64,000 bases of DNA, from contig CAYOPN010000003.1 of NCBI GenBank assembly GCA_964405835.1, forward strand, positions 29,273 to 93,272. Reading direction: 5' to 3'. This document shows positions 827 through 29,161 of the stretch, one piece after another (within the stretch, counting starts at the first letter, position 1; every line of letters starts with the position of its first letter). This stretch comes from an uncultured Elusimicrobia bacterium. GTDB lineage: Bacteria; Elusimicrobiota; Elusimicrobia; F11. The translations under genes were made by a program, and so were the position numbers. The notes beneath the pieces were generated by a model that was not told where the DNA came from, made no database searches, and worked only from the letters and a program-made list of their open reading frames with translations.

Positions 827-2110
827 ATGTCACCTTTAAAATTGATTCAAAAGACGATACATAAGGCCATGCATAAATCTAATTCGATTCTGATGACAAA
901 ACAAACAATCGCCTTCTTAATTGGTGTCGTTTTGATGAATTTACCCACAAATGCCGCAGCCGATGCCGGCGTTTCCGGTGGTTTATCCCTATTAAATGAG
1001 GGAAGCGCCCGTTGGTCCTCTTTGGGACAAGCCGGTGTGGCCGCCCACGACGATATCGCTGGCATGGCCTACAATCCGGCCACCCTTGGCTCGCTTTCTT
1101 CCGGTCAAGCTTCCTTCTTATATCAGCAGGGGCTGATTGAAGACGCTTACGGTCAATTTATGATCGGCACCCCGCGCGGTGAAAAATCCGCCTTGGGCTT
1201 CTCGTTTGGTTATTACAACGGCGGAGACATTGAGCTGACCAATGAAAACGGCCAGACCGAAAGCGTGAACGCCCAGACCGATATGACCGCTGCTTTGGGT
1301 TATTCCGTCAAGATGGGCGGCATGTCCATGGGCCTTTCCGGAAAGGTTTTGAATTCGAAATTGATCGACCAATATTCGGGCACCGCCTATGCCGCCGACC
1401 TTGGTATGGTCATGCCGGTGGGTTCGCGCTTGCAACTTGGCGCCGCGGCCCTTAATTATGGAACGCAATTGAAATATGCCGAAGAAGGCGACCCGCTTCC
1501 CCGCATGCTTCAGGTCGGTGGATCGTTCGCCCTCCGTCAAAACGCCACCCTTTTATTGAGCATTCCTTATATGGTGAACGAAAAGATGACCACCCCGTCT
1601 CTGGGTCTTGAGACCTTGTTCGGCCCGCTGGCCATTCGCGCCGGCTACCGTTCGGGCAAAGATGTCCAAGAGTTCACCATGGGCGCCGGCTTTGCGCTGG
1701 GCCGTTCATCTCTCGATTACGCGTTCGGAATGGTCAACCAATTGGACGCTCAGCACAAAGTGAGCATGGCCATGAGATTCGGCGGCGCTTCGGCGACCCC
1801 GGCCTTAATCACCAAGAAACCCACTATTGAACGTACCGTGGCGGCCCCCACGAAACAACGCACCGTAGAACAGACCGCGTCGAAGACCACTACCGTCGAG
1901 CGCCGTCATAGCCTCGGCGGCCAGCAAGTGCTCCGCGCCCCGGCCCGCACCCGCCGCGTGTACATCGTGAAACAAGGCGACACCCTGGCTTCGATTGCGA
2001 AAGAAGAACTTGGCGATAAGCGCCAATGGCAGTCCATTTATTCGGCGAACAAGCACTTGATTGACGACCCGGCCTCAATTGAAAAAGGGATGCGGATCAT
2101 CATCCCGTAA
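827..2110 (+). CDS. Outer-membrane beta-barrel protein with C-terminal LysM peptidoglycan-binding domain (paralogue of 26276..27769)
   Basis: N-terminal signal-like hydrophobic stretch; beta-barrel-like alternating pattern with motif GMAYNPATLG (cf. FYNPAGL in paralogue); C-terminal YIVKQGDTLASIAKEELGD...IIIP is LysM-like. Exact start uncertain among N-terminal Met codons. Confidence 0.6.
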   Translation: MSPLKLIQKTIHKAMHKSNSILMTKQTIAFLIGVVLMNLPTNAAADAGVSGGLSLLNEGSARWSSLGQAGVAAHDDIAGMAYNPATLGSLSSGQASFLYQQGLIEDAYGQFMIGTPRGEKSALGFSFGYYNGGDIELTNENGQTESVNAQTDMTAALGYSVKMGGMSMGLSGKVLNSKLIDQYSGTAYAADLGMVMPVGSRLQLGAAALNYGTQLKYAEEGDPLPRMLQVGGSFALRQNATLLLSIPYMVNEKMTTPSLGLETLFGPLAIRAGYRSGKDVQEFTMGAGFALGRSSLDYAFGMVNQLDAQHKVSMAMRFGGASATPALITKKPTIERTVAAPTKQRTVEQTASKTTTVERRHSLGGQQVLRAPARTRRVYIVKQGDTLASIAKEELGDKRQWQSIYSANKHLIDDPASIEKGMRIIIP

Positions 2111-3198: not shown

Positions 3199-3221
3199 GA
3201 GCGGCGCATGATAACAGGTTT

Positions 3222-3260
3222 TCTTAAAAAACTTTAATTCGGCGTTAATGGGCGGTTAAT
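3222..3260 (+). promoter_or_regulatory. Four phased TTAA(T) half-sites (spacing 10/11/11 bp) upstream of arnB: PmrA/BasR-box-like response-regulator site
   Basis: cTTAAa (3224), tTTAAT (3234), gTTAAT (3245), gTTAAT (3256). OmpR/PhoB-family regulators bind direct repeats at ~11-bp periodicity; the PmrA box is CTTAAT-N5-CTTAAT. Confidence 0.45.
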
Positions 3261-3306
3261 GGTCGAATTTTATGCTGAGGGCATGAAATCAAGTGATTCG
3301 CCCAAA

Positions 3307-9387: not shown

Positions 9388-10003
9388 AGAAGAAGGACAT
9401 ACCGTTTCCCAGGCCGCGGATGGCCAAGAAGGCCTTAAAGCCGCGCTTTCCGGCGAGAATGAGTTCATTATTCTCGACCTCATGCTCCCCAAAATGGACG
9501 GCATCGCCCTCTGCAGGAAGGTCCGCGAGAGCGGCATCGAGACCCCCATCGTGATGCTGACCGCCAAAGACGCGCTGGAAAACCGGATCGAAGGACTCGA
9601 AACCGGCGCCGATGACTACCTCGTAAAACCATTTGCTTTCGGCGAACTCCTGGCCCGCATCAAGGCCGTGGCCCGGCGAAAAAATTCCGAGCCGCAAACC
9701 ACCATTGAAATTGCCGGGCTTGCCATCGACCTGGTCCGCCACAAGGTCTCTTACGAAGACAAGAACGTGGAACTCACCAGCCGCGAGTTCGCGCTGCTGC
9801 AGCATTTCATGAAGCGGCGCGACCACGTGCTCAGCCGGACCATGATCATTGAATCGGTGTGGGGCTACGACTTCCAGGCCGGCACCAATATCATCGATGT
9901 GTACATCAATTTTCTCCGGCGAAAACTCCACAAACTGACCGGAAAAGAATGGATCCGCACCGTGCGCAACCGCGGATATGTTTTTGAAGAACCCGCCGAA
10001 TGA
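9326..10003 (+). CDS. OmpR-family two-component response regulator (PmrA/BasR-like; candidate regulator of the arn operon)
   Basis: MKVLIIEDD...ILDLMLPKMDG...LTAKDA receiver domain, then winged-helix ...IRTVRNRGYVFE. Confidence 0.8.
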   Translation: MKVLIIEDDKTIRSFIAKGLKEEGHTVSQAADGQEGLKAALSGENEFIILDLMLPKMDGIALCRKVRESGIETPIVMLTAKDALENRIEGLETGADDYLVKPFAFGELLARIKAVARRKNSEPQTTIEIAGLAIDLVRHKVSYEDKNVELTSREFALLQHFMKRRDHVLSRTMIIESVWGYDFQAGTNIIDVYINFLRRKLHKLTGKEWIRTVRNRGYVFEEPAE

Positions 10004-11800: not shown

Positions 11801-11883
11801 GCCGGCGTGGCGGAATGGCAGACGCGTCAGACTCAAAATCTGATACTCGCAAGGGTGTGTAGGTTCAAGTCCTATCGCCGGTA
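11801..11883 (+). tRNA. tRNA-Leu (anticodon CAA), long variable arm, CCA not encoded
   Basis: Acceptor GCCGGCG/CGCCGGT; D-stem GCG/CGC; anticodon stem TCAGA/TCTGA with loop CTCAAAA (CAA); long variable arm TACTCGCAAGGGTGTG; T-arm GTAGG-TTCAAGT-CCTAT; discriminator A. Confidence 0.7.
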
Positions 11884-11949
11884 CTCTTAGCCCTCCTTAG
11901 TGCAATCCCGAAGTAAGCAAAAGCAGCGCCACTCTTTTGCTTAATTTGT

Positions 11950-18800: not shown

Positions 18801-19140
18801 AAATACCATTGCCTCCAACACGCAGCTTCCATTTACCTTTGACAGTCAATCGTCACCCGGACAAACCCCCAATGGAGGAACCCCCTCCGCCTCGAATCCT
18901 CGCGGGGGAAATTCCATCTATACCATCAACCCCTCCCGGGGATGGAACTCCATAGAGATGGCTTGCGAAGCGGATTTGGCCTCCATCTTCAATCGGATCG
19001 GGAAGGAAGTGGCCGTCGTGCCGACATACCAAAGACATTTGAGCTGGTACGGCAGAAATAACGAAGGGAGAGCTTGTCCTTCTGGCACCTATATTATTTC
19101 AGGCTGCGGCGGAAAAAAGAAGGTCGTCATCGTAAGATAA
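15892..19140 (+). CDS. Large secreted protein: signal peptide, G8 domain, right-handed beta-helix (CEMIP/TMEM2-like fold), FN3 and Ig-like domains
   Basis: Signal MRKTIFTLIFPSLLAPAVAMA. G8-like WESPATWAGNIVPSPNNVVII...GKLTF. Repetitive N/G-rich beta-helix turns. FN3-like PPSIPQGLQATVVSDNRINLTWSASNDPESDVAQYNIYRNG. Confidence 0.5.
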   Translation: MQDRGRYMRKTIFTLIFPSLLAPAVAMALDCANPAQFIGHGPDPFIPYVAYPGYVAPGQSLIESIQDGPWESPATWAGNIVPSPNNVVIIKHRVTLNSTVRVADTAVISTGKLTFNSTLDTRLELGTLQVVCGQLEIGTENAPVESNRKAEIVFLDIPINTTRDPGQYNNGLVVIDGKVTIHGAPKMDTFLRLAAEAPAGASMVTLENPTTGWKPGDLLMFHDTRQYTNTTRPDIPEADHTVQSEVIPIASISGDGRSVTLASSLQYAHKGARDGDDVLIFRPWVGNLTRNVNIRSANPNGTRGHMLFMHRSQIDIRYAQMFELGRTKTDPLNNTLFTPSGSPTQIGTNQIGRYSAHFHHVAGPLSTPANGYQFTFQGNSVFSLLETTSFKWGIALHNSHFGLIKDNVVYNWSGAGIVAEDGNETANMVAHNFVNRLTYTGTGEDSRSREDVGHTGAPFWFRGPNNIIRDNVASGGTGGFAIVVGAMANPTTRIPLGPGSDTAEAGQYTMKDMMAIAIREFARNEVAGATIMGSTIWNVGSRNNVTPVNEIEESVIKDFRVWHVSSYVYYNYKTNRVTFDGAVCLGDFQTLRNLTSAAGAFFFSDYVSFNFKIINSNIQGFLNGILIGPVGDQTIENTYMRNYISIIKVPTWMASGAPAPELPPRTVTLKNVRFVPTGTPSRNDWGTQAFIRLTGIPHARATNLIQRDRLFVYNHNGVVGDNFRGFTPEQKFDAIMPKTQVRQDGWIELLASPDEGLTNQQNRDLHGIMTAGEIAPCHDTRTGIIGFVCPMVNDATPPSIPQGLQATVVSDNRINLTWSASNDPESDVAQYNIYRNGVFIRETPSTNFSDTGLREATQYQYEVSAVNLADIESPKSAPASATTLVDNTPPQLMSVFAAGNPNFVNAVFNEPVNEASAESVLNYVINLGVTVQAAVLQADLKTVALTVSGLLENIQYLLTVNNVTDRSLAGNTIASNTQLPFTFDSQSSPGQTPNGGTPSASNPRGGNSIYTINPSRGWNSIEMACEADLASIFNRIGKEVAVVPTYQRHLSWYGRNNEGRACPSGTYIISGCGGKKKVVIVR

Positions 19141-19179: not shown

Positions 19180-19719
19180 ATGACGTCCAAAAATCCCAAT
19201 CCCTACATGCTGGTTCCCCCCGGAAACGATATTCCCCGTGTTGTGAACGCCATCATCGAAATCCCGAAAGGACGCCGCAACAAATTCGAAGTTGATAAAA
19301 AAACCGGGCTCATTCGTTTGGACCGGCATCTCTTTGCTTCCAGCCATTACCCGGGCGACTACGGATTTATTCCACAAACCCTGGCCGAGGATGGCGACCC
19401 GCTCGACGTGTTGGTTATGGTAAACGAGCCAACGTTCAGCGGCTGTTTGATTGAGTCTCGCGTCATTGGACTCTTCAAGATGAAAGACGGCGGGAAAAAC
19501 GATTTCAAAGTCCTGGGTGTCCCCAACACCGACCCGCTGTTCGCGGAATACCACGAGTTAAAAGACGTGCCGAGCCATTTTCTCCGGGAAGTTGAACATT
19601 TCTTTGGGACCTACAAACAACTGGAAGGTGTGCCGATTGACGTTTTGGGATGGGCGAAGGCCGCCGATGCAGTGGCCGAAGTAAAAAAGTCCGTCGAAAG
19701 ATACAAGAAGAAACGTTAG
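19180..19719 (+). CDS. ppa: Inorganic pyrophosphatase (family I)
   Basis: IEIPKGRRNKFEVD...DGDPLDVLV...KVLGV motifs. Confidence 0.9.
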   Translation: MTSKNPNPYMLVPPGNDIPRVVNAIIEIPKGRRNKFEVDKKTGLIRLDRHLFASSHYPGDYGFIPQTLAEDGDPLDVLVMVNEPTFSGCLIESRVIGLFKMKDGGKNDFKVLGVPNTDPLFAEYHELKDVPSHFLREVEHFFGTYKQLEGVPIDVLGWAKAADAVAEVKKSVERYKKKR

Positions 19720-20480
19720 ATCCCCAGCAGTTCCCCCGCCGTTACGATCGCAAATCCTTTTTCTTTGGCCGCCTTGATCACCGCTTCGGTGATTGCGAGC
19801 GATTTGTCGCTCTTGGGCCAGCCGTCGTGGAGAAGAATGACAGCACCAGGGCGAATGGCCTTAACATAACCGGGAATATCCGTCTCGGCTCCCGTCGAGT
19901 TCCAATCGGTCCCGTAGGTCCAATTGACTAGCACGAACCCGGTTTCCTTGGCGGCTTGTTTTATCCACGGTTTATCGATGCCATGCGGCATGCGCATGAT
20001 TTTTAACTTTTGACCGCCGGTTTTCTCGATGATCCGCTGTGAATCGCGGATATCTTTCACCAAATCGTCTTTGGCCAGCTCGGCCGCTTTGTCCGCGTTC
20101 CCGACCTCTTGAAGCCGCGCTTTGTACCGCTTGTTGTAGTTCATGTGCGTCATCGTGTGATTGGCGATTTCATGCCCTTGCGCGCTGATCTTTTTCAACA
20201 TCGACGGTCTAAGCCTCGACTGTTCCCCCAACACGAAAAAAGTGGCCTTCACCTGATACCGGTCGAGTAAGTCCAGAAATTTTTCGGTGTTGGGGCCGGG
20301 ACCGTCATCAAATGTCAACGCGATCTTCTTTTCTTTGGTCGGCCCCTGCGTCAGAAAATCGCCCGGCTTCGGCGCCGCCATCGCCGCGACCGTCACAAAA
20401 AATAGCAACAAGAAAGTGTTAGTACGCTTTATCATCAGGGTCCCAGAAATTGACCGAACGTTCTTCGCCGCTGACCACAC
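19716..20480 (-). CDS. Secreted polysaccharide deacetylase (CE4/NodB homology)
   Basis: ALTFDDGPGPNTEKFLDLLDRYQVKATFFVLG, HEIANHTMTH. Start may be the internal Met at 20435 (MIKRTNTFLLLFF signal). Confidence 0.8.
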   Translation of the reverse strand: MWSAAKNVRSISGTLMIKRTNTFLLLFFVTVAAMAAPKPGDFLTQGPTKEKKIALTFDDGPGPNTEKFLDLLDRYQVKATFFVLGEQSRLRPSMLKKISAQGHEIANHTMTHMNYNKRYKARLQEVGNADKAAELAKDDLVKDIRDSQRIIEKTGGQKLKIMRMPHGIDKPWIKQAAKETGFVLVNWTYGTDWNSTGAETDIPGYVKAIRPGAVILLHDGWPKSDKSLAITEAVIKAAKEKGFAIVTAGELLGI

Positions 20481-21327
20481 CGGACGACGATACGTTCAAC
20501 GACCAAAGACTTCTTACCATTCCGCGGGACGAAAAAATAATTTTCCCCCAATCCACGCGCCAACCGCCCTCTGGGAGCGGAACGGCCCGACCGACCGCCC
20601 AATGCGTCGTTTTGGAGAACCGGCGGATATTATCCGAGGTCAAACTGGCCTTGATCGGAAAAGAATCCATGTCGGTCCAGGCGGTCACTCCTTTTTTCTC
20701 TTTGCCGGTTAGCAGGTTGATGTGGCGCGAACTGTAGGCACAACAAGGCGGAATGTCGGTCACCGCCGTCCATCCGAACGGATTGATCACGCCGGCCACA
20801 ATCTCGGTCTTTTCCCCTTCGCCGTTGCGTCCGACCAAATGGTTCGCGTAAGCGCGGCTCGATATCGAAAGGACCAGGTAGAGCCCCCAACTGACCCACA
20901 TCCACCGCGTGGCGGCCCACCCCTCGGTTTTCCGACGATGAACGAACCAAAGCCCCACACCCATGAACAATAGCGGGATCACCGTCACCGCCGGGACCAG
21001 ATTCGCCCCGTATTCCTCGAATGTGAAGGGAGAAAACAGCGGCACGCCATAACTCGTCAAGTAATCGCAAACCGAATGCAAAAAGAAAGGCAGGGAATAA
21101 TGAAACCAGCGCTGCCGGAAAGGGCCCGGATCAAAACGGGACAAAACCGCCGCGAAGAAACATGATTGGACCACCGCGCCAAAAAACGAATGGCTGATAC
21201 CGCGGTGCTGCAACCAATACGACCACGGTCCGCACCAATGAAAAAAAACGTCCAGATCGGGAACGTTGGCGAGCGCGGCCATGATCCAGAACCGCCGTGG
21301 CGACGCGCGGAAGGTCTTGGCGGCCAA
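20419..21327 (-). CDS. Membrane-bound metal-dependent hydrolase (YdjM/DUF457-like) with extra C-terminal domain
   Basis: NVPDLDVFFHWCGPWSYWLQHRGISHSF resembles YdjM LPDIDH...GHRGFTHS; multiple TM segments. Confidence 0.55.
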   Translation of the reverse strand: MAAKTFRASPRRFWIMAALANVPDLDVFFHWCGPWSYWLQHRGISHSFFGAVVQSCFFAAVLSRFDPGPFRQRWFHYSLPFFLHSVCDYLTSYGVPLFSPFTFEEYGANLVPAVTVIPLLFMGVGLWFVHRRKTEGWAATRWMWVSWGLYLVLSISSRAYANHLVGRNGEGEKTEIVAGVINPFGWTAVTDIPPCCAYSSRHINLLTGKEKKGVTAWTDMDSFPIKASLTSDNIRRFSKTTHWAVGRAVPLPEGGWRVDWGKIIFSSRGMVRSLWSLNVSSSGVVSGEERSVNFWDPDDKAY

Positions 21328-21347
21328 TCCCCCCGTCAGTGTGTGTG

Positions 21348-22103
21348 TTATCGGGTCCGTACGCGCTCCTTAATGAGGCGGTAGGTGTGCTGCGCGCCTT
21401 GCCATCCCAAATCTGCTGAGAGGATCCATCCCTCCCAGGTTTCCTTGCCAACGGCCTTGGCATAAGAAGAAAAGGTGGGTGTTTTAGCGAAGAGACCGAT
21501 GCCGAGGAACCCCACGACCAGCGTATTGCCGATCAAGATCAATACGCCCGAAAGAAACAGGCCAAGTACTTTTAAATCGGGTTGGTGCTTGTGGACGGCC
21601 GAAATGGTGAGCGAGATGTGAAAGGCCAGCGCCAACCCCAGAACAAATTGGAAGACCGGCAACAATTCCGGCGGGTTCCACCAGCGCCGCGTCACCGTGT
21701 AGATGAGAACGATCGCGATCAAATAAATCGGAATGATATAGGGCGAGAGCGCAATGAACGCGTTTGACTTCGACAGCCGCACTTCGCCGCCCGTCGACCT
21801 GGCCTTGAACGAATGGACTTTCGCGCCAGACAGAATGCCGGTGAGCGCATGCGTCATTTCATGTCCGAATACATACAGCCACATGGGCTTGGTCAGGAAC
21901 CGTTCCACGAGCAGATAGGTGAGCATGCCCGCCAGGTAAAGCCACAGGGATTGAAAACCGGTTTCCAAGAGATCGGGGAGCATGAGGCCGGTTTGATGAA
22001 GGACCGCCCATAAACAGGGAATAAGCGCCAGCGCGATAAACCAGCGGCCGGCGCGGCCGAATTTAGTCGAACGTCGTGTCTTCGAAAGGTATTTTTTGCT
22101 CAC
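21348..22103 (-). CDS. Putative integral-membrane zinc metallopeptidase (HExxH in TM context, M50B-like)
   Basis: LYVFGHEMTHALTGIL; several TM helices. Confidence 0.45.
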   Translation of the reverse strand: MSKKYLSKTRRSTKFGRAGRWFIALALIPCLWAVLHQTGLMLPDLLETGFQSLWLYLAGMLTYLLVERFLTKPMWLYVFGHEMTHALTGILSGAKVHSFKARSTGGEVRLSKSNAFIALSPYIIPIYLIAIVLIYTVTRRWWNPPELLPVFQFVLGLALAFHISLTISAVHKHQPDLKVLGLFLSGVLILIGNTLVVGFLGIGLFAKTPTFSSYAKAVGKETWEGWILSADLGWQGAQHTYRLIKERVRTR

Positions 22104-22521
22104 GCAGTTCTTGTTTCCATAACTCCAGGGCCTCGGGCGCTTTCACGCGCGCCATCTTGACCCATTTGGATTCGGGCGGGCTGAACAATTCGTAGGTGTC
22201 TTTGTACCATTGGTAGGCGTATTTGAGAGAGGACTCGCTGACGGCGTAATCGCGGTCGAATTCGAGGGCGTCAAGTTTTTCGACGTATTCGGGCGACGTG
22301 GGATCTCCCAGCGCTGATTTCTCCTGCTCAAACTTTTTGTCGAAAAATTCTTTTTTCAACTGCGGAGAGCGATGCCAGGCCATGTACTTCTCGGCTTCTT
22401 CGTAGGAATGCCGCGCCCGGCTCACCACATCGCGGTAAATAAGGCCGTAAACTCCGGCCGCTCCCACCAAAAAAACCAGGCTGCCTTTGACCCACCCTTT
22501 TTTCAGCCACTCCACCATCAA
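22063..22521 (-). CDS. Hypothetical protein with N-terminal TM anchor
   Basis: LVFLVGAAGVYGLIY TM then charged soluble domain; no recognised motif. Confidence 0.35.
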   Translation of the reverse strand: MMVEWLKKGWVKGSLVFLVGAAGVYGLIYRDVVSRARHSYEEAEKYMAWHRSPQLKKEFFDKKFEQEKSALGDPTSPEYVEKLDALEFDRDYAVSESSLKYAYQWYKDTYELFSPPESKWVKMARVKAPEALELWKQELREQKIPFEDTTFD

Positions 22522-22994
22522 AACCGTTCGTTAAAACCCTGTGGTGTGTCTTGGGAATTTTGGGCCCGCTGATCGGCCATGGTCATGGTGTTCAGCATCT
22601 TGTGGACTTTAATGAGGATTGTTTCAGGACGGAAAGGTTTCTCAATGTAACCGGCCATATTGGATTCTTGTTTCAACATGGCCTTGGTCGAGTCGTTCAT
22701 GTGGGAACCGGTGATCATAAAAACGGGCACTTTGCTGGTGATCGGGTCGCTCTGGAGTGTGCGCAACACGTCGTAGCCGCCGACACCGGGCATCATCAAG
22801 TCGGAAATGATGATGTCGGGCAGGAATTCCGCAGCAACTTTGGCGATGTTGCGGCCGTCCTTGCCGACTTTGACCTGGAAACCTTCCATCTCAAACGCGG
22901 ACCTTAAAAGGGCCAGGATTGAATCATCGTCGTCCATGATGAGGACTTTTTTTGTGGAGGGATGCGCCTTGGCGGGTGTTTTTGCATCAGCCAT
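22518..22994 (-). CDS. Single-domain response regulator (CheY-like receiver)
   Basis: KKVLIMDDDDSIL...IIISDLMMPGVGGYDVL...VPVFMITG...KPF. Confidence 0.8.
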   Translation of the reverse strand: MADAKTPAKAHPSTKKVLIMDDDDSILALLRSAFEMEGFQVKVGKDGRNIAKVAAEFLPDIIISDLMMPGVGGYDVLRTLQSDPITSKVPVFMITGSHMNDSTKAMLKQESNMAGYIEKPFRPETILIKVHKMLNTMTMADQRAQNSQDTPQGFNERF

Positions 22995-23364
22995 GTTTTT
23001 TTACTCCGGCGCGGACCGCCAAAACACGGTTTCGGTTATCGACTTGCACAAATTGGGGTTTAAGTTTTTTGGCCTTGGCGTCTTCGAGCCATGCCACGGA
23101 CATGATGATCACTTTATCGCCGGGGTCGCCGAGCCTCGCGGCGGCGCCGTTCAGGCCGATAACGCCGGAATGGCGCGGGCCTTTGATGATATAGGTCTCA
23201 AAACGGTTTCCGTTGGCGAGATTGGCCACGAGGACCATTTCGTGTTCGTACATTCCGGCGGCCTCGATGAGGGCCTGGTCGACCTCAATGCTGCCTTCGT
23301 AATCAAGCCGGCTGGCGGTGATGGTGGCGCGGTGGATTTTTGCTCTGCACATGCGTCGTAACAT
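22987..23364 (-). CDS. panD: Aspartate 1-decarboxylase
   Basis: MLRRMCRAKIHRATITASRLDYEGSIEVD...NGAAARLGDPGDKVIIMS aligns with E. coli PanD incl. the Gly-Ser self-cleavage site. The track ORF's 61-aa N-terminal extension is a PST-rich read-through. Confidence 0.85.
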   Translation of the reverse strand: MLRRMCRAKIHRATITASRLDYEGSIEVDQALIEAAGMYEHEMVLVANLANGNRFETYIIKGPRHSGVIGLNGAAARLGDPGDKVIIMSVAWLEDAKAKKLKPQFVQVDNRNRVLAVRAGVKKHG

Positions 23365-23398
23365 AAGGGGCGCATCGTAGCATGAAAAACGGAGGGCG

Positions 23399-23746
23399 TT
23401 AAGAAATGGTGAAACCGCCGGCGTAGGCGAGCGCGGCGATGACGTCACGGAGGGTCTCCTGGTCCACCACGTCGTCAAACGCGATGCCGGCCAGATAGTA
23501 GCCTTCCTTGTAGGTGGAGCGGATGATGCGGGCGCGCAAGTTTTCAAGATGAGCGCCGTCTTTGAGAGAAAACGTCACGTACACAACGCCCGCGACCTTC
23601 ATCTGAAAAGCCGTTTCAATCAACAGGCCTTCCGGGCTCAAATTGAGGATCCGGCCCCACCCTTCTTTGGCGCGGCCTTCCGGAAAACGGAGCCCGACCG
23701 GGATGCTCGTCGAAAACCGTGCGGTTTGGCGGCGCACGATTTCCAT
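23399..23746 (-). CDS. PilZ-domain protein (putative c-di-GMP receptor)
   Basis: From internal Met: MEIVRRQTARFSTSIPV...ILNLSPEGLLIET, i.e. RxxxR and D/NxSxxG-like PilZ motifs. Start overlaps the upstream stop (TAATG). Confidence 0.55.
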   Translation of the reverse strand: MEIVRRQTARFSTSIPVGLRFPEGRAKEGWGRILNLSPEGLLIETAFQMKVAGVVYVTFSLKDGAHLENLRARIIRSTYKEGYYLAGIAFDDVVDQETLRDVIAALAYAGGFTIS

Positions 23747-24906
23747 TATTTCCACCCGTCCAATTGGCGTTCGATTTCTTTCAGCGGACGCGACACCATG
23801 TGCGGCGCGCCGCCCGTGACCACCCACAGGCGCTCAAAGCCGACCGCCATGCCCGATGGCGGCACGTCCGGCGCGGTGAAATCGTTTAATTTGTACGGAC
23901 CGCGCCACACCACGGCCGCCCCTTTGCGCTCCAGTTTGGCCAGGCGGAGTGGTTTGCCCCCCATCACCCACAAAGCGTTGCCGTCCCAAGCGATACCGCT
24001 CGGATCGGGCAAGAGCGACTGCACGGTATCGATTACGCGCAGGTCCGGCCCATGTTTGTAGATAAGTCCGGTCTGCGCATCGCTCGACCACAAATTGACG
24101 CCGTCCCAGGCGATGCCGGTCGGGTTTGTGCCGGGAGCGGAAGCGGTCTGAAGCGTCGGCAACCCCAAAATGCGCTGGTGGCTGCGGAACTTCAAATCAA
24201 AACCGATCGTCACGAGACTGTCCGGCGTGTCACAGACCAAAATCGGCTGGCTGTCCTGCATGCGGAAAATTTCGTCGGCGATCAACGCGCGGCCCTTTTC
24301 GGTGAGGCCTTTTTTCAAAACATAATGCGTGATGGTCGAGTCGTACCAGTTGCCGACCCACAGCGATCGGCCGTCCCATTGGATGCCAGAGAGCGTGGCC
24401 GAGGCCAGGTTCATGGTCGGCGCGGGCGCGCCGTTCCAGCGGGCGCTGAGACCTTTACCGACAACAAACGACAACAAGATCCCAAACGTGATGGCGGCCC
24501 ACGGGACCTTGTCCTCTTTCAACCGTTTGCCGAACAACGTCCGTCCGTTCGCGGAGGCGGCGCGTTTGGCCGCGGTCAGCACGCGGAAACGCGTCAGCGG
24601 TTCCGGCAAACAATCAAACGCGCCGGCGTTCATGGCGTCGAGCGCGGGCACCGCCTTGCTTTCGTTGAGAACAACCAAAAACGGCGTGGCCGGCGCGGAT
24701 TTTTTAAGCGTTTGCTGCAAATTGTGCAGCGATTCCATCGGATCGGGTTTGGGCACGATCACCAACGTCGGCGGATCGGCCGGGATTTTCTCGATCGCTG
24801 CTTCAATTCCCGGCAGCATCTCGCAGGTCACGCCCACCGTTTTGAAATAACCGTCCATGCGCAGCTGGTCTTTTTTTGAAAAACCGATGAGCATTACGCG
24901 GGGCAC
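23746..24906 (-). CDS. Degenerate receiver-like domain, TM helix, periplasmic beta-propeller-like repeats (GIxWDGxxLW x3)
   Basis: N-terminus resembles REC but the phospho-acceptor position reads LVIVPKPDP. TM WAAITFGILLSFVV. Repeats GIQWDGRSLWVG, GIAWDGVNLWSS, GIAWDGNALWVM. Confidence 0.45.
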   Translation of the reverse strand: MPRVMLIGFSKKDQLRMDGYFKTVGVTCEMLPGIEAAIEKIPADPPTLVIVPKPDPMESLHNLQQTLKKSAPATPFLVVLNESKAVPALDAMNAGAFDCLPEPLTRFRVLTAAKRAASANGRTLFGKRLKEDKVPWAAITFGILLSFVVGKGLSARWNGAPAPTMNLASATLSGIQWDGRSLWVGNWYDSTITHYVLKKGLTEKGRALIADEIFRMQDSQPILVCDTPDSLVTIGFDLKFRSHQRILGLPTLQTASAPGTNPTGIAWDGVNLWSSDAQTGLIYKHGPDLRVIDTVQSLLPDPSGIAWDGNALWVMGGKPLRLAKLERKGAAVVWRGPYKLNDFTAPDVPPSGMAVGFERLWVVTGGAPHMVSRPLKEIERQLDGWK

Positions 24907-26279
24907 ACGAGGCTCCTCTCGAGCGGCAATTCAACCTGAAACGTGGTGCCGTCCGTGCCGCTTTTCAGCAATTGCAGCGTGCCGCCGTGATATTCCACGT
25001 AACGTTTGGCCCGGCTTAAACTCAAACCCTGGCGGTGTTCCTTCGTCGAGAAAAAGGGTTGGAAGAGGCGCGGCGCCAAATGTTCCGGAACACCGCGGCC
25101 CGAATCGCGCACGAGCATTTGGATCACGCCCAAATCGCTGCGGTTCTTGATGGAAATCGTGATCTGACCGGATTCGTTCGGCAACGCCTCCAATGCGTTC
25201 CGGAGCAATTCGTGCACCACAAAACGAAGCAACGTGGGGTCGCCGGGAACGTCCGGCATTGGATCATCGGTGAGAAACTCCACGGCCAGCGTGGGCCGGC
25301 GTTCTCCAAAAATCTCAGCCATTTCGCGGTTGACCAAATCTTTAAGGGACACCGGCGCCGTCGACATCTGCCGGCGGCTGGTCAAGTGCAGGTAATCATC
25401 GAGCGCGCTGGTCACGTCCTGAAGCTGCGCCTGGATCGCGCGGAAATTTTCGCTCAACTCGCCCGCGCCTTCCACCAACAAACGGAGCCGCGCTTTCCAG
25501 AACGATTCGCTCTTGCTCTGCGGGTCGAGCAAACCCAATCGCTCCAGTGTCAACAGAAGCTGACCTTGGGCGGAAACCAGCGTCGTACGCACGCGCTGAG
25601 CGACGCCTTTCGCAAACATCTCCTCTTCGGTCCAAGAGAGTTCCTGTTTTTTGCGGATGGCCCTTTCCATTTCTTCGACAAGTTTTTTCTGCAACAGGCC
25701 GATCTCTTCCTGTTTTGCGGAAACGTACTGGTTGCTCGCGTCGGAGAACAATGTCCGCAAATTCCCAATGCGGCTTTCCAGATCTTTGAGCTGGTTTTTT
25801 AGCGTCTCATGATTTTCCGAGTAAAACCGGATGTCGTTGTCGCGCAACCGCAACTGCTGGGCGCGGAACACTTCCGACTGCTGCTCGAAATCGTGCAGCC
25901 GTTTGCGCAGTCCTTCGTTTTCCCCTTCCAGTTCGCTCGTGCGCCGCCGCAGTTCAACGGACTCTTCGGCCAAAACGGTCTTATCATCGGCAAGTCCCTT
26001 CACTTCTTGCGCCAGCTTGAGCGCCTTGGATTTCAGATCATCCTCTGAAACGCCAAGCAACGAACGCAGCAGTTCGTTTTCGTCGGTGGACACTTTTTCC
26101 TGGGACTTGATGGCGGTCGCCATGCCGTTCATGGCTTTCTCAAAATCATCGAGGTCGGAGAGATATTCACGGAAGACCATTTCTTTTTCGGTTTCGGTGA
26201 CAGTGGGCAGCGCCCAAAGACGTTTGGCCAGTTTCTCTTTAAACGCGCGCAGCTCTTTCTGCCAGTCGGGCAGCGTCAT
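24894..26279 (-). CDS. Coiled-coil-rich histidine-kinase-like ATPase (HATPase_c); H-box not canonical
   Basis: C-terminal N/G1/G2 boxes: VVHELLRNALEA, RDSGRGVP, GLSLSRAKRYVEYHGG. N-terminal ~300 aa heptad-rich. 13-nt overlap with the downstream gene. Confidence 0.55.
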   Translation of the reverse strand: MTLPDWQKELRAFKEKLAKRLWALPTVTETEKEMVFREYLSDLDDFEKAMNGMATAIKSQEKVSTDENELLRSLLGVSEDDLKSKALKLAQEVKGLADDKTVLAEESVELRRRTSELEGENEGLRKRLHDFEQQSEVFRAQQLRLRDNDIRFYSENHETLKNQLKDLESRIGNLRTLFSDASNQYVSAKQEEIGLLQKKLVEEMERAIRKKQELSWTEEEMFAKGVAQRVRTTLVSAQGQLLLTLERLGLLDPQSKSESFWKARLRLLVEGAGELSENFRAIQAQLQDVTSALDDYLHLTSRRQMSTAPVSLKDLVNREMAEIFGERRPTLAVEFLTDDPMPDVPGDPTLLRFVVHELLRNALEALPNESGQITISIKNRSDLGVIQMLVRDSGRGVPEHLAPRLFQPFFSTKEHRQGLSLSRAKRYVEYHGGTLQLLKSGTDGTTFQVELPLERSLVCPA

Positions 26280-27769
26280 GGCACGACCAGTGTCGAACCG
26301 GCCTTGGGCAACCCGCGCTCGATTTTGTCGGGGTTAGCGTTGTAGATTTTCTTCCACTGGTTCGGGTCGCCGTAATATTCCCGCGCAATCGACTGCAGCG
26401 TCTCACCGGCCTGCACTCTGTGCGTGCGCACGGTGTTTTGTTTACGGCGGATCTCGCTGAGTGTGCCGCGCTCTGCGGAAAGGTTGCCTTCCAGATCGCG
26501 GATGCGGGCCTTTAGGTCCCGGATCACGGCGTCGCGCTCCCCCAACAAATCTTTGTTTTTGAGCTGATCAATGCGGGACTTGGCGTTTTCCATCTCTTCG
26601 ACCGCCAGCCGTTTCTTCTGTTCAAGCTCGGCCAAGGACGCTTTCAGTTCCGCTTCGCGTGAGGTCATCAGCACCACATTCTGGTCGAGCTGGCTGGCCT
26701 GTTCCAACGCGCGGTCGTAATAAATTTCTGAGAACTGTGGCCGGCCGAACTTGTAGGTGAGCGACGCCCGGAACTGGCTCGCGTCGTCGTTGGCGGTCTT
26801 AAGCGGGATCAGATAGGCGATGTCGATCTGCATCGGCGAGATGTAAAGTCCGACGCCGGTGGCCAGGAAGTCGATACCGCCATCATCGCGCGAACCCCAA
26901 CCGAGCCGCGGACGCACCACCCCGCGTGCGAGCAGCCATTCCATCCCGGGATGAATGCGCCAGACACCGCCTGTTCCGAACTCCAAGTCGGCGATCATCA
27001 ACAAATAGTCCGCGTATTTAAATTGCACGCCACCGATGAGCGAGGGGCCGTCCGCGTTGGCGCCGGGATTAAAAATCTGCCGGAGCGCGAGCCCCGACTG
27101 GAGCCGGCGGTTCATGGGAAAAATGAAGCCTCCCGTAAAACCCAAACCAATATTGGACTCGCCAATGCGGGAAGATTTATCGTCGCCATTCTGGTGGCGG
27201 ATCGTGGCGGCCAGACCGACTTTGGCCGGAAATTTGAGGAAGCCTTTGGTCCAACGTTCCAATGGCGCATCGCCGGCGGTGCCCATCGTGATGTCGACCA
27301 TGTGCGCGCCCTCGGCCGGCGTCATGCCATACACGCCCAGCGCGACCGGGTAATTCTTATCGCGGAACCGGTACGGCCGCGCATACACGCCGTTGAAATC
27401 GGAACCGGCCGTTAACCCCACGCTATGAAACCGGCCGTAATCGACCGTCATTTCTTCTTGAGTGATGTCGTGAAGACCCGCCGGGTTGTAGAAAAGCGCG
27501 TAGGAATCGCCCGACACCGCCGAATAGCCGTTTCCCAGCGCCAGAGGGCGGGCGCCGCGGCCTTGCCGCGGGGAGGCATGGCTCATCGCCACCAGTGCCA
27601 CCACGAACACGAAAACAAAAACCAGCACGGGGAGCCAACGGATATAGAACGGGTCTTTACGCCAGATGGGGCGGGGAGGGCCTAACTTGAACAGGGCGGG
27701 CCGGTCACTAAGGTGCCGGTGCTTTTCAGGATTATTTTTGTGTGTTGGTTCCGAGCGCATAGAGTCCAA
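26276..27769 (-). CDS. Outer-membrane beta-barrel protein with coiled-coil segment and C-terminal LysM domain (paralogue of 827..2110)
   Basis: FYNPAGL motif shared with the 827 ORF; LysM RVQAGETLQSIAREYYGDPNQWKKIYNANPDKI...STLVVP. Confidence 0.6.
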   Translation of the reverse strand: MDSMRSEPTHKNNPEKHRHLSDRPALFKLGPPRPIWRKDPFYIRWLPVLVFVFVFVVALVAMSHASPRQGRGARPLALGNGYSAVSGDSYALFYNPAGLHDITQEEMTVDYGRFHSVGLTAGSDFNGVYARPYRFRDKNYPVALGVYGMTPAEGAHMVDITMGTAGDAPLERWTKGFLKFPAKVGLAATIRHQNGDDKSSRIGESNIGLGFTGGFIFPMNRRLQSGLALRQIFNPGANADGPSLIGGVQFKYADYLLMIADLEFGTGGVWRIHPGMEWLLARGVVRPRLGWGSRDDGGIDFLATGVGLYISPMQIDIAYLIPLKTANDDASQFRASLTYKFGRPQFSEIYYDRALEQASQLDQNVVLMTSREAELKASLAELEQKKRLAVEEMENAKSRIDQLKNKDLLGERDAVIRDLKARIRDLEGNLSAERGTLSEIRRKQNTVRTHRVQAGETLQSIAREYYGDPNQWKKIYNANPDKIERGLPKAGSTLVVP

Positions 27770-27913: not shown

Positions 27914-28063
27914 TTAATTGGCCGAGGAGGAAACGGGGGCGACACCCTTCTTAACTTTGCCTTCCGCGATCAATTTGGCGCGCTGGCGTTTGAGGCGGCG
28001 TTTCCAGCGTTGATCGTTCTTATGACGGGTGCGTTTTTGACCACTTTTTGTGCGATGACTCAT
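27914..28063 (-). CDS. Candidate small, highly basic protein (49 aa), not in ORF track
   Basis: ATG 28063 with GGAG 8-11 nt upstream: MSHRTKSGQKRTRHKNDQRWKRRLKRQRAKLIAEGKVKKGVAPVSSSAN. Lies between the REPIN and hemH. Confidence 0.3.
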   Translation of the reverse strand: MSHRTKSGQKRTRHKNDQRWKRRLKRQRAKLIAEGKVKKGVAPVSSSAN

Positions 28064-28174: not shown

Positions 28175-29161
28175 ATGAGTCCAGCGAAACGCGCGATTTT
28201 GTTTCTCAATTTGGGCGGGCCGGAAACACAGGACGACGTGAAGCCGTTTTTGTATCGGCTGTTTGAAGACCCGGAAATCATTCGTATCCGGTTCACGCCG
28301 CTGCGGAAGTTTGTGGCGTGGGCCATCACGGCGTCGCGCTGGAAAGAATCCCAAAAAATGTACCAGATGATCGGCGGCGGCTCGCCGATCCGCCGCCTGA
28401 CCGATGAGCAGGCCGCGGCCACCCAGACGTCCCTCGAGAAAAAAGGGTATCTCGCCAAAATCCGCACCGCGTTCAACTGCTCGGCGCCGCTCGTGGAAGA
28501 CGTTGTCAAAGAACTGGCCGACGCCGGTTACGACCGGTTCCTGGCGTTCCCGCTTTACCCGCAATATTCGCTCACCACAACCAAAGGCGCGCTTGACCGC
28601 TCCCGCGCCGCCGTGAAAAAATTCGCGCCGAAAGCCTCCTTTCACGAAATCAATTCTTGGCACCTGCAACCCGACTTCATCCGGGCCCATGCGGACCTCA
28701 TCCGCGAGACCGCGCGCGGTTTTTCGGACAAAGACGACCGGAACACCCACCTCGTTTTTTCAGCCCATTCGATCCCCGAGAAACTCGTGACCGAGCTCGG
28801 CGACCCGTACAAAAAACAGATGGAAGAGACCGTCAAAGCGGTGGTTGAAAAAGCCGCCTGGAAAGGACCTTGGACGCTGGCCTGGCAATCCAAATTGGGC
28901 CCCGTCAAATGGCTGGGACCGTCGACGGAAGAAACGGTGTTACAGCTCGGGAAAAACGGGGTCAAACAAGTGCTTGTGGACCCGATTGCGTTTGTGACCG
29001 ACCACATCGAAACGCTTTACGAGCTTGATCAAGAACTGGCCGAAGAGGCCAAGGAAGCGGGCGTGTCGGAATTCCGGCGGACGCCGGGGCTCAACAGCAA
29101 CCCCGGCTTCATCGCGGGGTTGACCGATATCGCTATTCAGCAGCGATCGTTTTGGGACTAG
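28175..29161 (+). CDS. hemH: Ferrochelatase
   Basis: LFLNLGGPE, FPLYPQYSLTT, FSAHSIP, AFVTDHIETLYELD signature blocks. Confidence 0.9.
   Translation: MSPAKRAILFLNLGGPETQDDVKPFLYRLFEDPEIIRIRFTPLRKFVAWAITASRWKESQKMYQMIGGGSPIRRLTDEQAAATQTSLEKKGYLAKIRTAFNCSAPLVEDVVKELADAGYDRFLAFPLYPQYSLTTTKGALDRSRAAVKKFAPKASFHEINSWHLQPDFIRAHADLIRETARGFSDKDDRNTHLVFSAHSIPEKLVTELGDPYKKQMEETVKAVVEKAAWKGPWTLAWQSKLGPVKWLGPSTEETVLQLGKNGVKQVLVDPIAFVTDHIETLYELDQELAEEAKEAGVSEFRRTPGLNSNPGFIAGLTDIAIQQRSFWD

What the first reader, a model, noticed from the sequence alone, without database searches (positions are those of the whole stretch)
22518..27769. Compact minus-strand signalling cluster: OMP-LysM, coiled-coil HK-like ATPase, pseudo-receiver/TM/beta-propeller protein, PilZ, (panD), CheY-like RR; the OMP-LysM has a paralogue at 827-2110
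Genes overlap or abut (13-nt and 1-nt TAATG overlaps). The HK-like protein has canonical N/G1/G2 ATPase boxes but no canonical H-box. The receiver-like domain of the next protein lacks the phospho-acceptor Asp (LVIVPKPDP). The PilZ protein implies c-di-GMP input. The outer-membrane partner carries a LysM domain, normally a peptidoglycan binder, fused to a beta-barrel. Together this looks like an envelope-spanning, second-messenger-linked sensory module of unclear output; panD embedded in it is odd.
Basis: inference. Interest (0 to 1): 0.55.

Follow-up and report, generated by a model that had tools for sequence, protein, structure and literature searches.

The report
Decayed two-component envelope module with PilZ
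This Elusimicrobiota operon holds a conserved four-gene set that looks like a two-component signalling pair which lost its phosphorylation sites, gained a c-di-GMP-binding PilZ partner, and is linked to an outer-membrane barrel tied to the cell wall; nobody has described it.

Summary
All the genes, domains and overlaps are real, and the gene order is conserved in about a dozen Elusimicrobiota contigs at 47-100% protein identity.

The conserved core is four tightly coupled genes:
- A PorV/FadL-type 14-strand outer-membrane barrel with a fixed 109-residue helical stalk and a C-terminal LysM domain.
- A soluble, coiled-coil histidine-kinase-like ATPase. Its phospho-acceptor position is Gln here. 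Across 56 homologues it is H, Q or N, with at least 8 switches.
- A bitopic protein with a pseudo-receiver that lacks all five catalytic residues, one membrane helix and a periplasmic five-bladed propeller.
- A PilZ protein with both c-di-GMP-binding motifs intact.

panD and the CheY-like regulator sit in a second block behind a variable junction. They are absent from distant versions of the module.

Distant relatives keep a canonical kinase and a canonical receiver-membrane-propeller protein, and have no PilZ. All relatives with a degenerate receiver have a PilZ-like gene directly downstream.

My best reading, which is inference, is a phosphorylation-independent complex. PilZ, with c-di-GMP in this clade, acts on the pseudo-receiver, and the signal passes outward to the propeller and the barrel's wall tether.

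I found no paper on this module. It is a new variant of known signalling kinds. Function is untested.

The parts
27916..28063 (-). Conserved 49-aa, highly basic small ORF just upstream of the OMP gene. It may be the first gene of the operon.
   Evidence: tblastn finds it at the same position in 9 loci at 56-84% identity. It has no Pfam or NCBIfam family.
26276..27769 (-). Outer-membrane protein. Long N-terminal region with signal-like hydrophobic core (residues 45-63); PorV/FadL-type 14-strand barrel (about residues 70-340; window 26750-27562); helical stalk (349-444; 26438-26725); LysM (448-497; 26279-26428).
   Evidence: AlphaFold2 model, pLDDT 78, with 14 strands and two long helices. The best Foldseek PDB hits are PorV 6h3i_F and 8gl6_F, then FadL, TodX and TbuX. 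LysM is a Pfam hit. PorV_fam hits are weak, 37 bits against a cutoff of 90. The distance from barrel end to LysM is 109 aa in 38 of 44 homologues.
24894..26279 (-). Soluble histidine-kinase-like ATPase. Conserved N-terminal motif, coiled-coil region, DHp-like helices with a degenerate H-box (FAKGVA-Q228-RVRTTL; window 25578-25616, Gln codon 25596-25598), and HATPase_c (residues 346-454; 24918-25244).
   Evidence: HATPase_c E 6.5e-21 with no HisKA hit. No hydrophobic segment. The acceptor position across 56 homologues is H 34, Q 19, N 3, always followed by R or K. There are at least 8 state changes on a neighbour-joining tree. The G2 box is GLSLS. A crude heptad score is above the 99th percentile of shuffles at residues 138-192.
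23746..24906 (-). Bitopic inner-membrane protein. Cytoplasmic pseudo-receiver (residues 1-119; window 24550-24906; Pro52 at the acceptor position, codon 24751-24753); membrane helix (136-157; 24436-24501); periplasmic five-bladed beta-propeller (164-374; 23785-24417).
   Evidence: AlphaFold2 pLDDT 91. The family profile hits NtrC/DctD receivers in the PDB. An alignment of 28 homologues shows no conserved Asp at the acceptor position and no DD, T/S or K. The most compact Foldseek matches are five-bladed glutaminyl cyclases 2iwa, 3nol and 3nok, and YjiK 3qqz. The blade repeats are related to Vgb_lyase, SGL and NHL-type repeats.
23399..23746 (-). Stand-alone PilZ protein (115 aa) with R6xxxR10 and N35-L-S-P-E-G40. 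It is translationally coupled to the preceding gene by a TAATG overlap.
   Evidence: Pfam PilZ 44.2 bits against a cutoff of 22.5. RxxxR is conserved in all 12 core-clade contigs compared and [DN]xSxxG in 11 of them (L007 has Asn at the Ser position). Orthologues at 36-58% identity lie directly downstream of distant REC-propeller genes.
22987..23364 (-). panD, aspartate 1-decarboxylase (125 aa), intact. It is the first gene of the second conserved block and not part of the core module.
   Evidence: TIGR00223 124.5 bits against a cutoff of 106. The Gly24-Ser25 self-processing site is read in the sequence. It follows a variable junction and is absent from remote versions of the module.
22518..22994 (-). 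Single-domain CheY/DivK-like response regulator with canonical DD, D, T/S and K. It is an accessory, not a constant part of the module.
   Evidence: Response_reg E 2.3e-22. Catalytic residues are conserved in the 8 contigs that have it. It is absent in L007 and L013 and absent next to remote modules.
19716..22521 (-). Downstream envelope genes in the same tightly packed run: a 152-aa membrane-anchored protein (22063-22521), an M50B-like HExxH membrane protein (21348-22103), a YdjM-family protein (20419-21327) and a Polysacc_deac_1 deacetylase (19716-20480).
   Evidence: Pfam hits. Hydropathy. Order is conserved in all long core-clade loci. They are not found beside remote modules.
827..2110 (+). 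Paralogue in architecture: a PorV-family barrel plus C-terminal LysM. The pairwise alignment shows no counterpart of the cluster protein's helical stalk; it was not modelled.
   Evidence: NCBIfam PorV_fam 127.6 bits against a cutoff of 90. Pfam PorV 36 bits against 27, and LysM. 27% identity to the cluster's protein over the C-terminal 170 aa.

Best explanation
The core is a four-gene module specific to Elusimicrobiota. It descends from a two-component pair made of a soluble coiled-coil histidine kinase and an unusual membrane-anchored response regulator, whose receiver is cytoplasmic and whose attached domain is a periplasmic five-bladed propeller.

In this clade the phosphotransfer chemistry has decayed on both partners:
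- The receiver lacks the acidic pair, the acceptor Asp, the Thr/Ser and the Lys.
- The kinase's acceptor residue is Gln in this genome and drifts among His, Gln and Asn across the family.
- The kinase's G2 box is degenerate.

The two folds, the N, G1 and F nucleotide-binding boxes, and the gene coupling are all kept. A small PilZ protein is encoded directly behind the pseudo-receiver gene, and here it keeps both c-di-GMP-binding motifs.

Proposed mechanism (inferred, not shown). The pseudo-kinase dimer and the pseudo-receiver form a stable complex that mimics a kinase-regulator docking complex. PilZ binds this cytoplasmic hub, loaded with c-di-GMP in this clade. The resulting change passes through the single membrane helix to the periplasmic propeller, which is inside-out signalling. 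The propeller acts on the periplasmic tail of the partner outer-membrane protein or on peptidoglycan. That partner is a PorV/FadL-type barrel held to the cell wall by a fixed-length helical stalk ending in LysM. The output would be control of outer-membrane-to-wall tethering, or of whatever the barrel holds or passes at the cell surface.

panD, the CheY-like regulator and the four downstream envelope genes are conserved neighbours in this clade only.
For: Shown:
- The gene set and order are conserved in all core-clade loci long enough to tell, at 47-100% identity. The four core genes overlap by 4, 13 and 1 nt.
- The receiver fold is present with every catalytic residue missing across 28 homologues.
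- The kinase acceptor position is H 34, Q 19, N 3, with at least 8 changes on the tree, while the flanking FAKGVA-x-RVRT motif is almost invariant. The N and G1 boxes are kept.
- Four distant relatives have canonical receivers (DD, D, T, K). At three of the four loci an upstream kinase gene is seen (HisKA hit in L016/17; canonical GLGL G2 in L024; His kept in L023); L020 has too little upstream sequence to tell. None has PilZ downstream.
- All five distant lineages with a degenerate receiver, and all core loci, have a PilZ-like gene immediately downstream.
- A full-length OMP-LysM orthologue sits next to the REC-propeller gene in relatives at only 21-24% identity (L022 and L023).
- The stalk length is invariant at 109 aa in 38 of 44 homologues.
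- PilZ motifs are intact in the window.

Inferred:
- The direction of signalling is inferred from the domain logic that a receiver domain is an input module.
- Physical contacts between the proteins are inferred from gene coupling and co-occurrence.
Against: - There is no experimental or structural evidence for any contact between these proteins. No complex could be modelled with the tools available.
- In two distant lineages (L021, L022) the PilZ-like partner has lost both c-di-GMP motifs. c-di-GMP input is therefore not universal to the family.
- 61% of the kinase-like homologues keep His. Even the canonical relatives have R or Q after His. Some family members may therefore still autophosphorylate, and a canonical CheY-like regulator is encoded three genes downstream here.
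- The correlation between PilZ and a degenerate receiver rests on few lineages that are not phylogenetically independent.
- The propeller's ligand is unknown.
- The promoter and terminator scans gave no information about operon structure.
- No GGDEF or EAL gene is present in this 64-kb window. That is uninformative about the whole genome.
Confidence: 0.45

Rival explanations
1. Outside-in envelope sensor. The periplasmic propeller senses wall fragments or the state of the barrel-LysM tether. The pseudo-receiver relays this to the kinase-like ATPase, and the output leaves through the CheY-like regulator, PilZ, or both.
For: The membrane topology fits a sensor. The propeller is rich in invariant Trp residues, as sugar-binding propellers are (the comparison is from my own knowledge). 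A canonical single-domain regulator is in the same gene run. The operon carries envelope genes, including a deacetylase.
Against: The window's kinase-like protein has Gln at the only recognisable acceptor site, and His is lost repeatedly in the family. The regulator is absent in L007 and L013 and from all distant modules. In the canonical relatives the receiver sits on the propeller protein itself, which makes the propeller the receiver's effector domain rather than the kinase's sensor.
Confidence: 0.2
2. DivL/DivK-style reverse signalling. The CheY-like regulator is phosphorylated by an unlinked kinase. It then binds the pseudo-kinase's DHp helices and switches the complex. PilZ adds a second input.
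For: The regulator scores against the DVU0259/DivK-type single-domain family (E 5e-18) and is fully canonical. The kinase-like protein lacks His here, as DivL does, and DivL (4q20) is among its PDB sequence hits.
Against: The DivL hit reflects general kinase homology. The regulator is dispensable in two close relatives and is absent from distant modules, so it cannot be the core input.
Confidence: 0.12
3. Surface-protein anchoring accessory. The PorV-like barrel holds or releases large surface proteins that carry a type-IX-like C-terminal domain. The decayed two-component pair plus PilZ regulates retention, in the manner of LapD/LapG/LapA.
For: In the canonical relatives, giant Ig/fn3 proteins with C-terminal CHU_C or FlgD_ig domains lie directly upstream of the module (L023, L016/17). 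The barrel's best structural match is PorV, which binds such C-terminal domains. A 1082-aa G8/beta-helix/fn3 protein with a weak CHU_C hit lies about 600 nt from the operon end in the window.
Against: The CHU_C hit in the window is below threshold (20.5 bits against 27), and the gene is on the opposite strand. Most core-clade loci have no giant protein adjacent. No type IX core genes were seen. The barrel fails the PorV family cutoff.
Confidence: 0.13
4. No functional unit. The genes are neighbours by inheritance only and work independently. The barrel-LysM is a wall tether, and the kinase-like protein, pseudo-receiver protein and PilZ act as separate signalling proteins.
For: All the core-clade contigs are from one phylum and could share synteny by descent. 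The downstream block (panD to the deacetylase) shows that unrelated genes can stay syntenic here.
Against: Overlapping stop and start codons link the four core genes. The pairs recur in lineages at 20-31% identity, where all other neighbours differ. The degeneration of the receiver, the degeneration of the kinase G2 box and the presence of PilZ go together.
Confidence: 0.1

Closest known systems
LapD-LapG-LapA/LapE inside-out c-di-GMP signalling (Pseudomonas; PMC3032553)
   Same: A cytoplasmic c-di-GMP signal is read by a catalytically dead signalling domain on an inner-membrane protein. It is passed outward to a periplasmic domain that controls something at an outer-membrane barrel.
   Different: LapD uses degenerate GGDEF-EAL domains and a periplasmic Cache-like domain that traps a protease. 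Here the dead domains are a receiver and a histidine kinase, c-di-GMP would be read by a separate PilZ protein, the periplasmic domain is a propeller, and no protease or adhesin has been identified. There is no homology.
YfiBNR (Pseudomonas; PMC3375315)
   Same: A c-di-GMP module that spans the envelope, in which an outer-membrane protein with a peptidoglycan-binding domain is a signalling partner.
   Different: YfiB is an OmpA/Pal-like lipoprotein, not a barrel-stalk-LysM protein. YfiN makes c-di-GMP rather than reading it. The direction there is outside-in.
Pseudo-histidine kinases and pseudo-receivers (DivL, RetS, FrzS-type receivers)
   Same: Two-component folds are kept for protein-protein signalling after loss of the phospho-acceptor residue. 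DivL and RetS are among the PDB sequence hits.
   Different: Here both partners of one cognate, adjacent pair have decayed together. The acceptor His toggles among H, Q and N within one orthologous family. The pseudo-receiver is fused to a membrane helix and a periplasmic propeller.
PorV / FadL family outer-membrane barrels (type IX secretion shuttle; 6h3i, 8gl6)
   Same: A 14-strand barrel with an N-terminal plug-like segment. PorV is the best structural match, and the conserved N-terminal motif hits PorV/PorQ models.
   Different: The protein fails the family score cutoff. It carries a C-terminal 109-aa helical stalk plus LysM that PorV lacks. The phylum is not known to have a type IX system.
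OmpM and intimin/invasin-type wall-anchored barrels (from my own knowledge)
   Same: An outer-membrane barrel joined to a periplasmic wall-binding domain. In OmpM the join is through a coiled-coil stalk. In intimin the wall-binding domain is LysM.
   Different: OmpM uses an N-terminal SLH domain and a porin barrel. Intimin has an N-terminal LysM, a 12-strand barrel and a passenger domain. Here the order is barrel, stalk, then C-terminal LysM, on a FadL/PorV-type barrel.

Membership tests
Histidine kinase (HisKA-type two-component sensor kinase) | Phospho-acceptor His in the H-box of the DHp domain | tested here: not met
   The window has Gln228 in FAKGVA-Q-RVRTTL. There is no HisKA Pfam hit.
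Histidine kinase (HisKA-type two-component sensor kinase) | GHKL ATPase domain with N, G1, F and G2 boxes | tested here: inconclusive
   HATPase_c E 6.5e-21. N (residues 356-366), G1 (DSGRGV) and F (FQPFFSTK) are intact. G2 reads RQGLSLS, with two of three glycines lost. ATP binding was not testable.
Response regulator receiver domain (REC) | (beta-alpha)5 receiver fold | tested here: met
   The AlphaFold2 model has five strand-helix units at residues 3-119, pLDDT about 91. The family profile hits NtrC/DctD receivers.
Response regulator receiver domain (REC) | Acceptor Asp at the end of strand 3, plus the acidic pair, Thr/Ser and Lys | tested here: not met
   Pro52 is at the acceptor position. 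No DD, T/S or K in the window or in any of 28 homologues. Canonical residues are present only in distant relatives.
PilZ c-di-GMP receptor | PilZ domain above the Pfam threshold | tested here: met
   44.2 bits against a cutoff of 22.5.
PilZ c-di-GMP receptor | RxxxR and [D/N]xSxxG binding motifs | tested here: met
   R6-QTA-R10 and N35-LSPE-G40. RxxxR is conserved in all 12 core-clade contigs compared and [DN]xSxxG in 11 of them.
PilZ c-di-GMP receptor | Binds c-di-GMP | not testable with these tools
   Needs a binding assay.
PorV/PorQ family (type IX secretion) | Family model score above the curated cutoff | tested here: not met
   NF033709 37.3 bits against a cutoff of 90 for the cluster's protein. 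The paralogue at 827-2110 passes with 127.6 bits.
PorV/PorQ family (type IX secretion) | 14-strand FadL-like barrel | tested here: met
   The AlphaFold2 model has 14 strands. The top PDB hits are PorV 6h3i_F and 8gl6_F.
PorV/PorQ family (type IX secretion) | Operates with type IX core machinery (SprA, PorK/L/M/N) | not tested
   Only about 35 of the window's ORFs were scanned against family models, and none was a type IX core gene. The whole genome is not available.
LysM peptidoglycan-binding domain | LysM domain above threshold at a periplasmic terminus | tested here: met
   23.2 bits against a cutoff of 20.9, residues 450-497. It is modelled with pLDDT about 90. The C-terminus of an even-stranded barrel is periplasmic (established knowledge).
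Aspartate 1-decarboxylase (PanD) | Equivalog model score and Gly24-Ser25 self-processing site | tested here: met
   TIGR00223 124.5 bits against a cutoff of 106. YEG-S is read in the sequence.
LapD-type inside-out c-di-GMP receptor | Degenerate GGDEF-EAL cytoplasmic module and a LapG-binding periplasmic domain | tested here: not met
   No such domains in any gene of the cluster. The resemblance is in logic only.

The most novel reading that the evidence does not exclude
This is a previously unrecognised class of trans-envelope signalling device. It would be a response regulator whose effector domain lies in the periplasm, so that two-component signalling runs from the inside outward. Within Elusimicrobiota it has evolved into a phosphorylation-free machine: a kinase fossil and a receiver fossil form a permanent scaffold, and a PilZ adaptor supplies the input (c-di-GMP). 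The machine would mechanically or allosterically control a fixed-length barrel-stalk-LysM tether between the outer membrane and the cell wall.
Probability: 0.25. Interest if true: 0.8.

Novelty: new variant of a known kind. Interest (0 to 1): 0.62.

Why it matters
- It would be a natural, multi-lineage record of how a two-component pair loses phosphotransfer on both partners at once and is re-wired to another input. Pseudo-kinases and pseudo-receivers are usually studied one protein at a time.
- The ancestral form, a canonical receiver fused through one membrane helix to a periplasmic propeller, implies two-component signalling directed outward into the periplasm. That is a rarely considered output class.
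- The barrel-stalk-LysM protein is a candidate outer-membrane-to-wall tether of a new layout, in a deep-branching diderm phylum whose envelope is essentially unstudied. Its stalk length is invariant, which suggests it could act as a periplasmic ruler.
- All of this can be tested with recombinant proteins, even though the organisms are uncultured.

Tried and rejected
It gave only one relevant but truncated locus, L025.
- The promoter and terminator consensus scans gave counts close to the shuffled expectation and no operon boundaries.
- A phmmer search of the PDB with PilZ found nothing meaningful.
- Literature searches for Elusimicrobia+LysM+outer membrane, PilZ+pseudo-receiver, PorV+LysM, Elusimicrobia+type IX secretion, and receiver/transmembrane/periplasmic/propeller/inside-out found no description of this module.
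- A motif search for GGDEF or EAL genes in the window found none.
- Glutaminyl cyclase as a function for the propeller was rejected. The match is at fold level only, at 12-17% identity.
- 'The kinase is dead because His is followed by Arg' was rejected as an argument, because canonical-pair relatives also have H-R or H-Q.
- panD as part of the module was rejected, because of the variable junction and its absence from distant modules.

Full report
**What is there**

The minus strand between 28063 and 19716 carries a run of tightly packed genes.

| Window coordinates | Product | Main evidence |
|---|---|---|
| 27916-28063 | 49-aa basic ORF | Conserved position in 9 loci |
| 26276-27769 | 497-aa outer-membrane protein | Barrel, stalk and LysM |
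| 24894-26279 | 461-aa kinase-like protein | HATPase_c E 6.5e-21, no HisKA |
| 23746-24906 | 386-aa membrane protein | Pseudo-receiver, membrane helix, propeller |
| 23399-23746 | 115-aa PilZ | E 2.5e-11 |
| 22987-23364 | panD | TIGR00223 124.5 bits against a cutoff of 106; Gly24-Ser25 site present |
| 22518-22994 | CheY-like regulator | Response_reg E 2.3e-22 |
| 22063-22521 | 152-aa membrane-anchored protein | No family hit |
| 21348-22103 | M50B-like protein | |
| 20419-21327 | YdjM-family protein | |
| 19716-20480 | Polysaccharide deacetylase | |

- ATGA between the outer-membrane gene and the kinase-like gene.
- A 13-nt overlap into the GTG start of the membrane protein. Its N-terminus MPRVML is conserved in homologues.
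- TAATG into PilZ.
- A 34-nt gap before panD.
- An 8-nt overlap into the regulator.
- TGATG into the next gene.

**The individual proteins**

*Outer-membrane protein.* The AlphaFold2 model has pLDDT 78. It shows a 14-strand barrel, then helices at residues 349-405 and 411-444, then LysM at 448-497. The best PDB matches are PorV of the type IX translocon (6h3i_F, 8gl6_F), followed by FadL, TodX and TbuX. Sequence models for PorV/PorQ hit only weakly, at 37 bits against a cutoff of 90. The distance from the end of the barrel to the start of LysM is 109 residues in 38 of 44 homologues and 106-109 in all of them. The stalk length is therefore under strong constraint.

*Kinase-like protein.* It has no hydrophobic segment. 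It has a conserved N-terminal motif and a heptad-rich region. A DHp-like segment reads FAKGVA-Q228-RVRTTL. The N, G1 and F boxes are intact, but the G2 box reads RQGLSLS.

*386-aa membrane protein.* The model has pLDDT 91. It shows a receiver fold at residues 1-119, a membrane helix at 136-157 and a five-bladed propeller at 164-374.
- A profile of the family hits NtrC/DctD receiver domains in the PDB.
- The acceptor position is Pro52. The acidic pair, the Thr/Ser and the Lys are also missing, in all 28 aligned homologues.
- The propeller's most compact structural matches are five-bladed glutaminyl cyclases and YjiK, at 12-17% identity.
- Its blade repeat is a widespread type related to Vgb-lyase, SGL and NHL repeats.

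*PilZ.* It has R6xxxR10 and N35-LSPE-G40.

*CheY-like regulator.* It is fully canonical.

**Conservation**

Each of the three signature proteins has only about 50 relatives among 5.8 billion database proteins. Wherever a source names them, they come from Elusimicrobia or Elusimicrobiota. A scan of species-representative genomes found nine loci, all in that phylum, including 'Candidatus Obscuribacterium magneticum'.

In every contig long enough, the order is the same: outer-membrane protein, kinase-like, receiver-propeller, PilZ, a variable junction, panD, regulator, 152-aa protein, M50B-like, YdjM, deacetylase.

- The junction after PilZ ranges from about 35 to 1200 nt.
- In seven of the relatives' loci the junction holds an extra membrane-HAMP-like gene that the window lacks.
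- The regulator is missing in L007 and L013.

**The phospho-acceptor His is dispensable**

Among 56 kinase-like homologues the acceptor position is His in 34, Gln in 19 and Asn in 3. The surrounding motif is nearly invariant. A neighbour-joining tree with Fitch parsimony needs at least eight changes among these states. The window's subclade is uniformly Gln.

The residue after the acceptor position is always Arg or Lys. Canonical relatives also have H-R or H-Q, so I do not use that residue as evidence of inactivity.

**Distant relatives show the ancestry**

A profile search of 1.84 billion representative proteins found full-length proteins with the receiver-membrane-propeller layout at 19-31% identity.

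| Group | Proteins or loci | Receiver | Upstream kinase | Gene directly downstream |
|---|---|---|---|---|
| Canonical | P0164, P0174, P0244, P0246 (loci L016/17, L020, L023, L024) | DD, D, T/S and K present | Kinase gene seen at three of the four loci (HisKA hit in L016/17; canonical GLGL G2 in L024; His kept in L023); L020 has too little upstream sequence | A Sigma54_DBD-like gene, rho, an opposite-strand gene, or ruvB; no PilZ |
| Degenerate | L014, L015, L018/19, L021, L022 | Catalytic residues lost | Present in some | A PilZ-like orthologue at 28-58% identity |

- L015 and L021 also have the kinase-like gene upstream. The L021 copy again has Gln.
- L022 (21% identity) and L023 (canonical receiver) have a full-length orthologue of the barrel-stalk-LysM protein next to the receiver-propeller gene.
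- In L021 and L022 the PilZ-like protein has lost both c-di-GMP motifs but keeps an invariant EGWGR motif.
- None of the distant loci carries panD, the stand-alone regulator or the downstream envelope genes.

**Interpretation**

The receiver-propeller protein is the hub.
- Its ancestral partner was an adjacent, soluble, canonical kinase.
- Because a receiver domain is an input module, its covalently attached periplasmic propeller is most simply read as the output. That makes the signalling inside-out.
- In the window's clade the relay chemistry has decayed on both partners. A PilZ-like adaptor sits behind the pseudo-receiver gene, and in this clade it keeps its c-di-GMP motifs.
- The recurring outer-membrane partner is a wall-tethered barrel with a length-invariant stalk.

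I therefore propose a phosphorylation-independent cytoplasmic complex of pseudo-kinase, pseudo-receiver and PilZ. Its state is set by c-di-GMP, and possibly by nucleotide binding to the kinase-like domain. That state is relayed through the membrane helix to the propeller, which acts on the barrel's stalk or LysM tail, or on peptidoglycan.

What is shown and what is inferred:
- The anatomy, the conservation and the pattern of joint degeneration are shown.
- Every protein-protein contact, the direction of signalling and the output are inferred.

Rival readings are scored separately in this report: an outside-in sensor; DivL/DivK-like input through the CheY-like regulator; a role in holding surface proteins that carry type-IX-like C-terminal domains; and mere inherited synteny.

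**Comparison with known systems**

In logic, the nearest systems are LapD/LapG inside-out c-di-GMP signalling (PMC3032553) and the YfiBNR envelope module (PMC3375315). Neither is homologous to this one.

The kinase-like and receiver-like proteins fail the defining phospho-acceptor tests of their families. They belong with pseudo-kinases and pseudo-receivers such as DivL, RetS and FrzS. Here, unlike those cases, a cognate adjacent pair has decayed together.

The barrel resembles PorV and FadL but fails the PorV model cutoff, and it carries a stalk and LysM that PorV lacks. From my own knowledge, OmpM (SLH, coiled coil, barrel) and intimin (LysM, barrel) are analogous wall-anchored barrels with different domain orders. 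Five literature searches found no description of this module.

**Verdict**

- It is a conserved module with an envelope-spanning layout that contains PilZ.
- The unit is four genes, not six.
- panD is an ordinary neighbour.
- The CheY-like regulator is accessory.
- The likely direction of signalling is outward.

I rate it a new variant of known signalling kinds, restricted to an uncultured-rich phylum. Interest is moderate to high, because it gives a testable case of a two-component pair re-wired after losing phosphotransfer, and a candidate new form of outer-membrane-to-wall tether.

Noticed in passing
window 27916-28063 (-): A 49-aa, extremely basic ORF (MSHRTKSGQKRTRHKNDQRWKRRLKRQRAKLIAEGKVKKGVAP...). 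It has no Pfam or NCBIfam family. It is conserved at 56-84% identity immediately upstream of the outer-membrane gene in 9 loci. Its function is unknown.
   Followed up: partly
L003 9711-10175, L004 9690-10271, and the equivalent positions in L005-L009; the window has only a 34-nt gap at 23365-23398: Many relatives carry an extra 154-193-aa membrane protein between PilZ and panD, with a HAMP-like segment judged by eye. The window, L001, L011 and L013 lack it. It may be a fifth, dispensable component of the module.
   Followed up: partly
window 2230-11373: Genes resembling the L-Ara4N lipid A modification pathway: DegT aminotransferase, GT2, formyltransferase, epimerase, deacetylase and a PMT_2 transferase. 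They are followed by an OmpR-type regulator and a HAMP/HisKA kinase. The PorV+LysM paralogue (827-2110) lies beside them.
   Followed up: no
window 15892-19140 (+): A 1082-aa protein with G8, CEMIP beta-helix and fn3 domains and a sub-threshold C-terminal CHU_C hit (type IX secretion type B signal). In the canonical-receiver relatives L023 and L016/17, giant Ig/fn3 proteins with CHU_C or FlgD_ig C-termini directly precede the module. This hints at a type-IX-like surface-protein link in a phylum not known to have that system.
   Followed up: partly
window 24894-24906: The public (NCBI) gene call for the receiver-propeller protein starts at the ATG and gives 382 aa. The conserved N-terminus MPRVML in homologues indicates the GTG start 4 codons upstream, which gives 386 aa and a 13-nt overlap.
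   Followed up: yes
L021 1971-2351; L022 6924-7241: In two distant lineages the PilZ-like partner has lost both c-di-GMP-binding motifs but keeps an invariant EGWGR motif. This suggests its conserved role is as a protein adaptor.
   Followed up: partly
L007 and L013: The CheY-like regulator gene is absent between panD and the 152-aa gene. Both lineages have Gln at the kinase acceptor position. All four His-bearing loci keep the regulator. The sample is too small for a conclusion.
   Followed up: partly
window 11801-11884 (+): tRNA-Leu (CAA) is the only tRNA in the window.
   Followed up: no
L003 3746-4728: The ferrochelatase gene, which is divergent from the cluster as in the window (28175-29161), is called as two ORFs of 179 and 148 aa. 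This is probably a frameshift or an assembly error in that contig.
   Followed up: no
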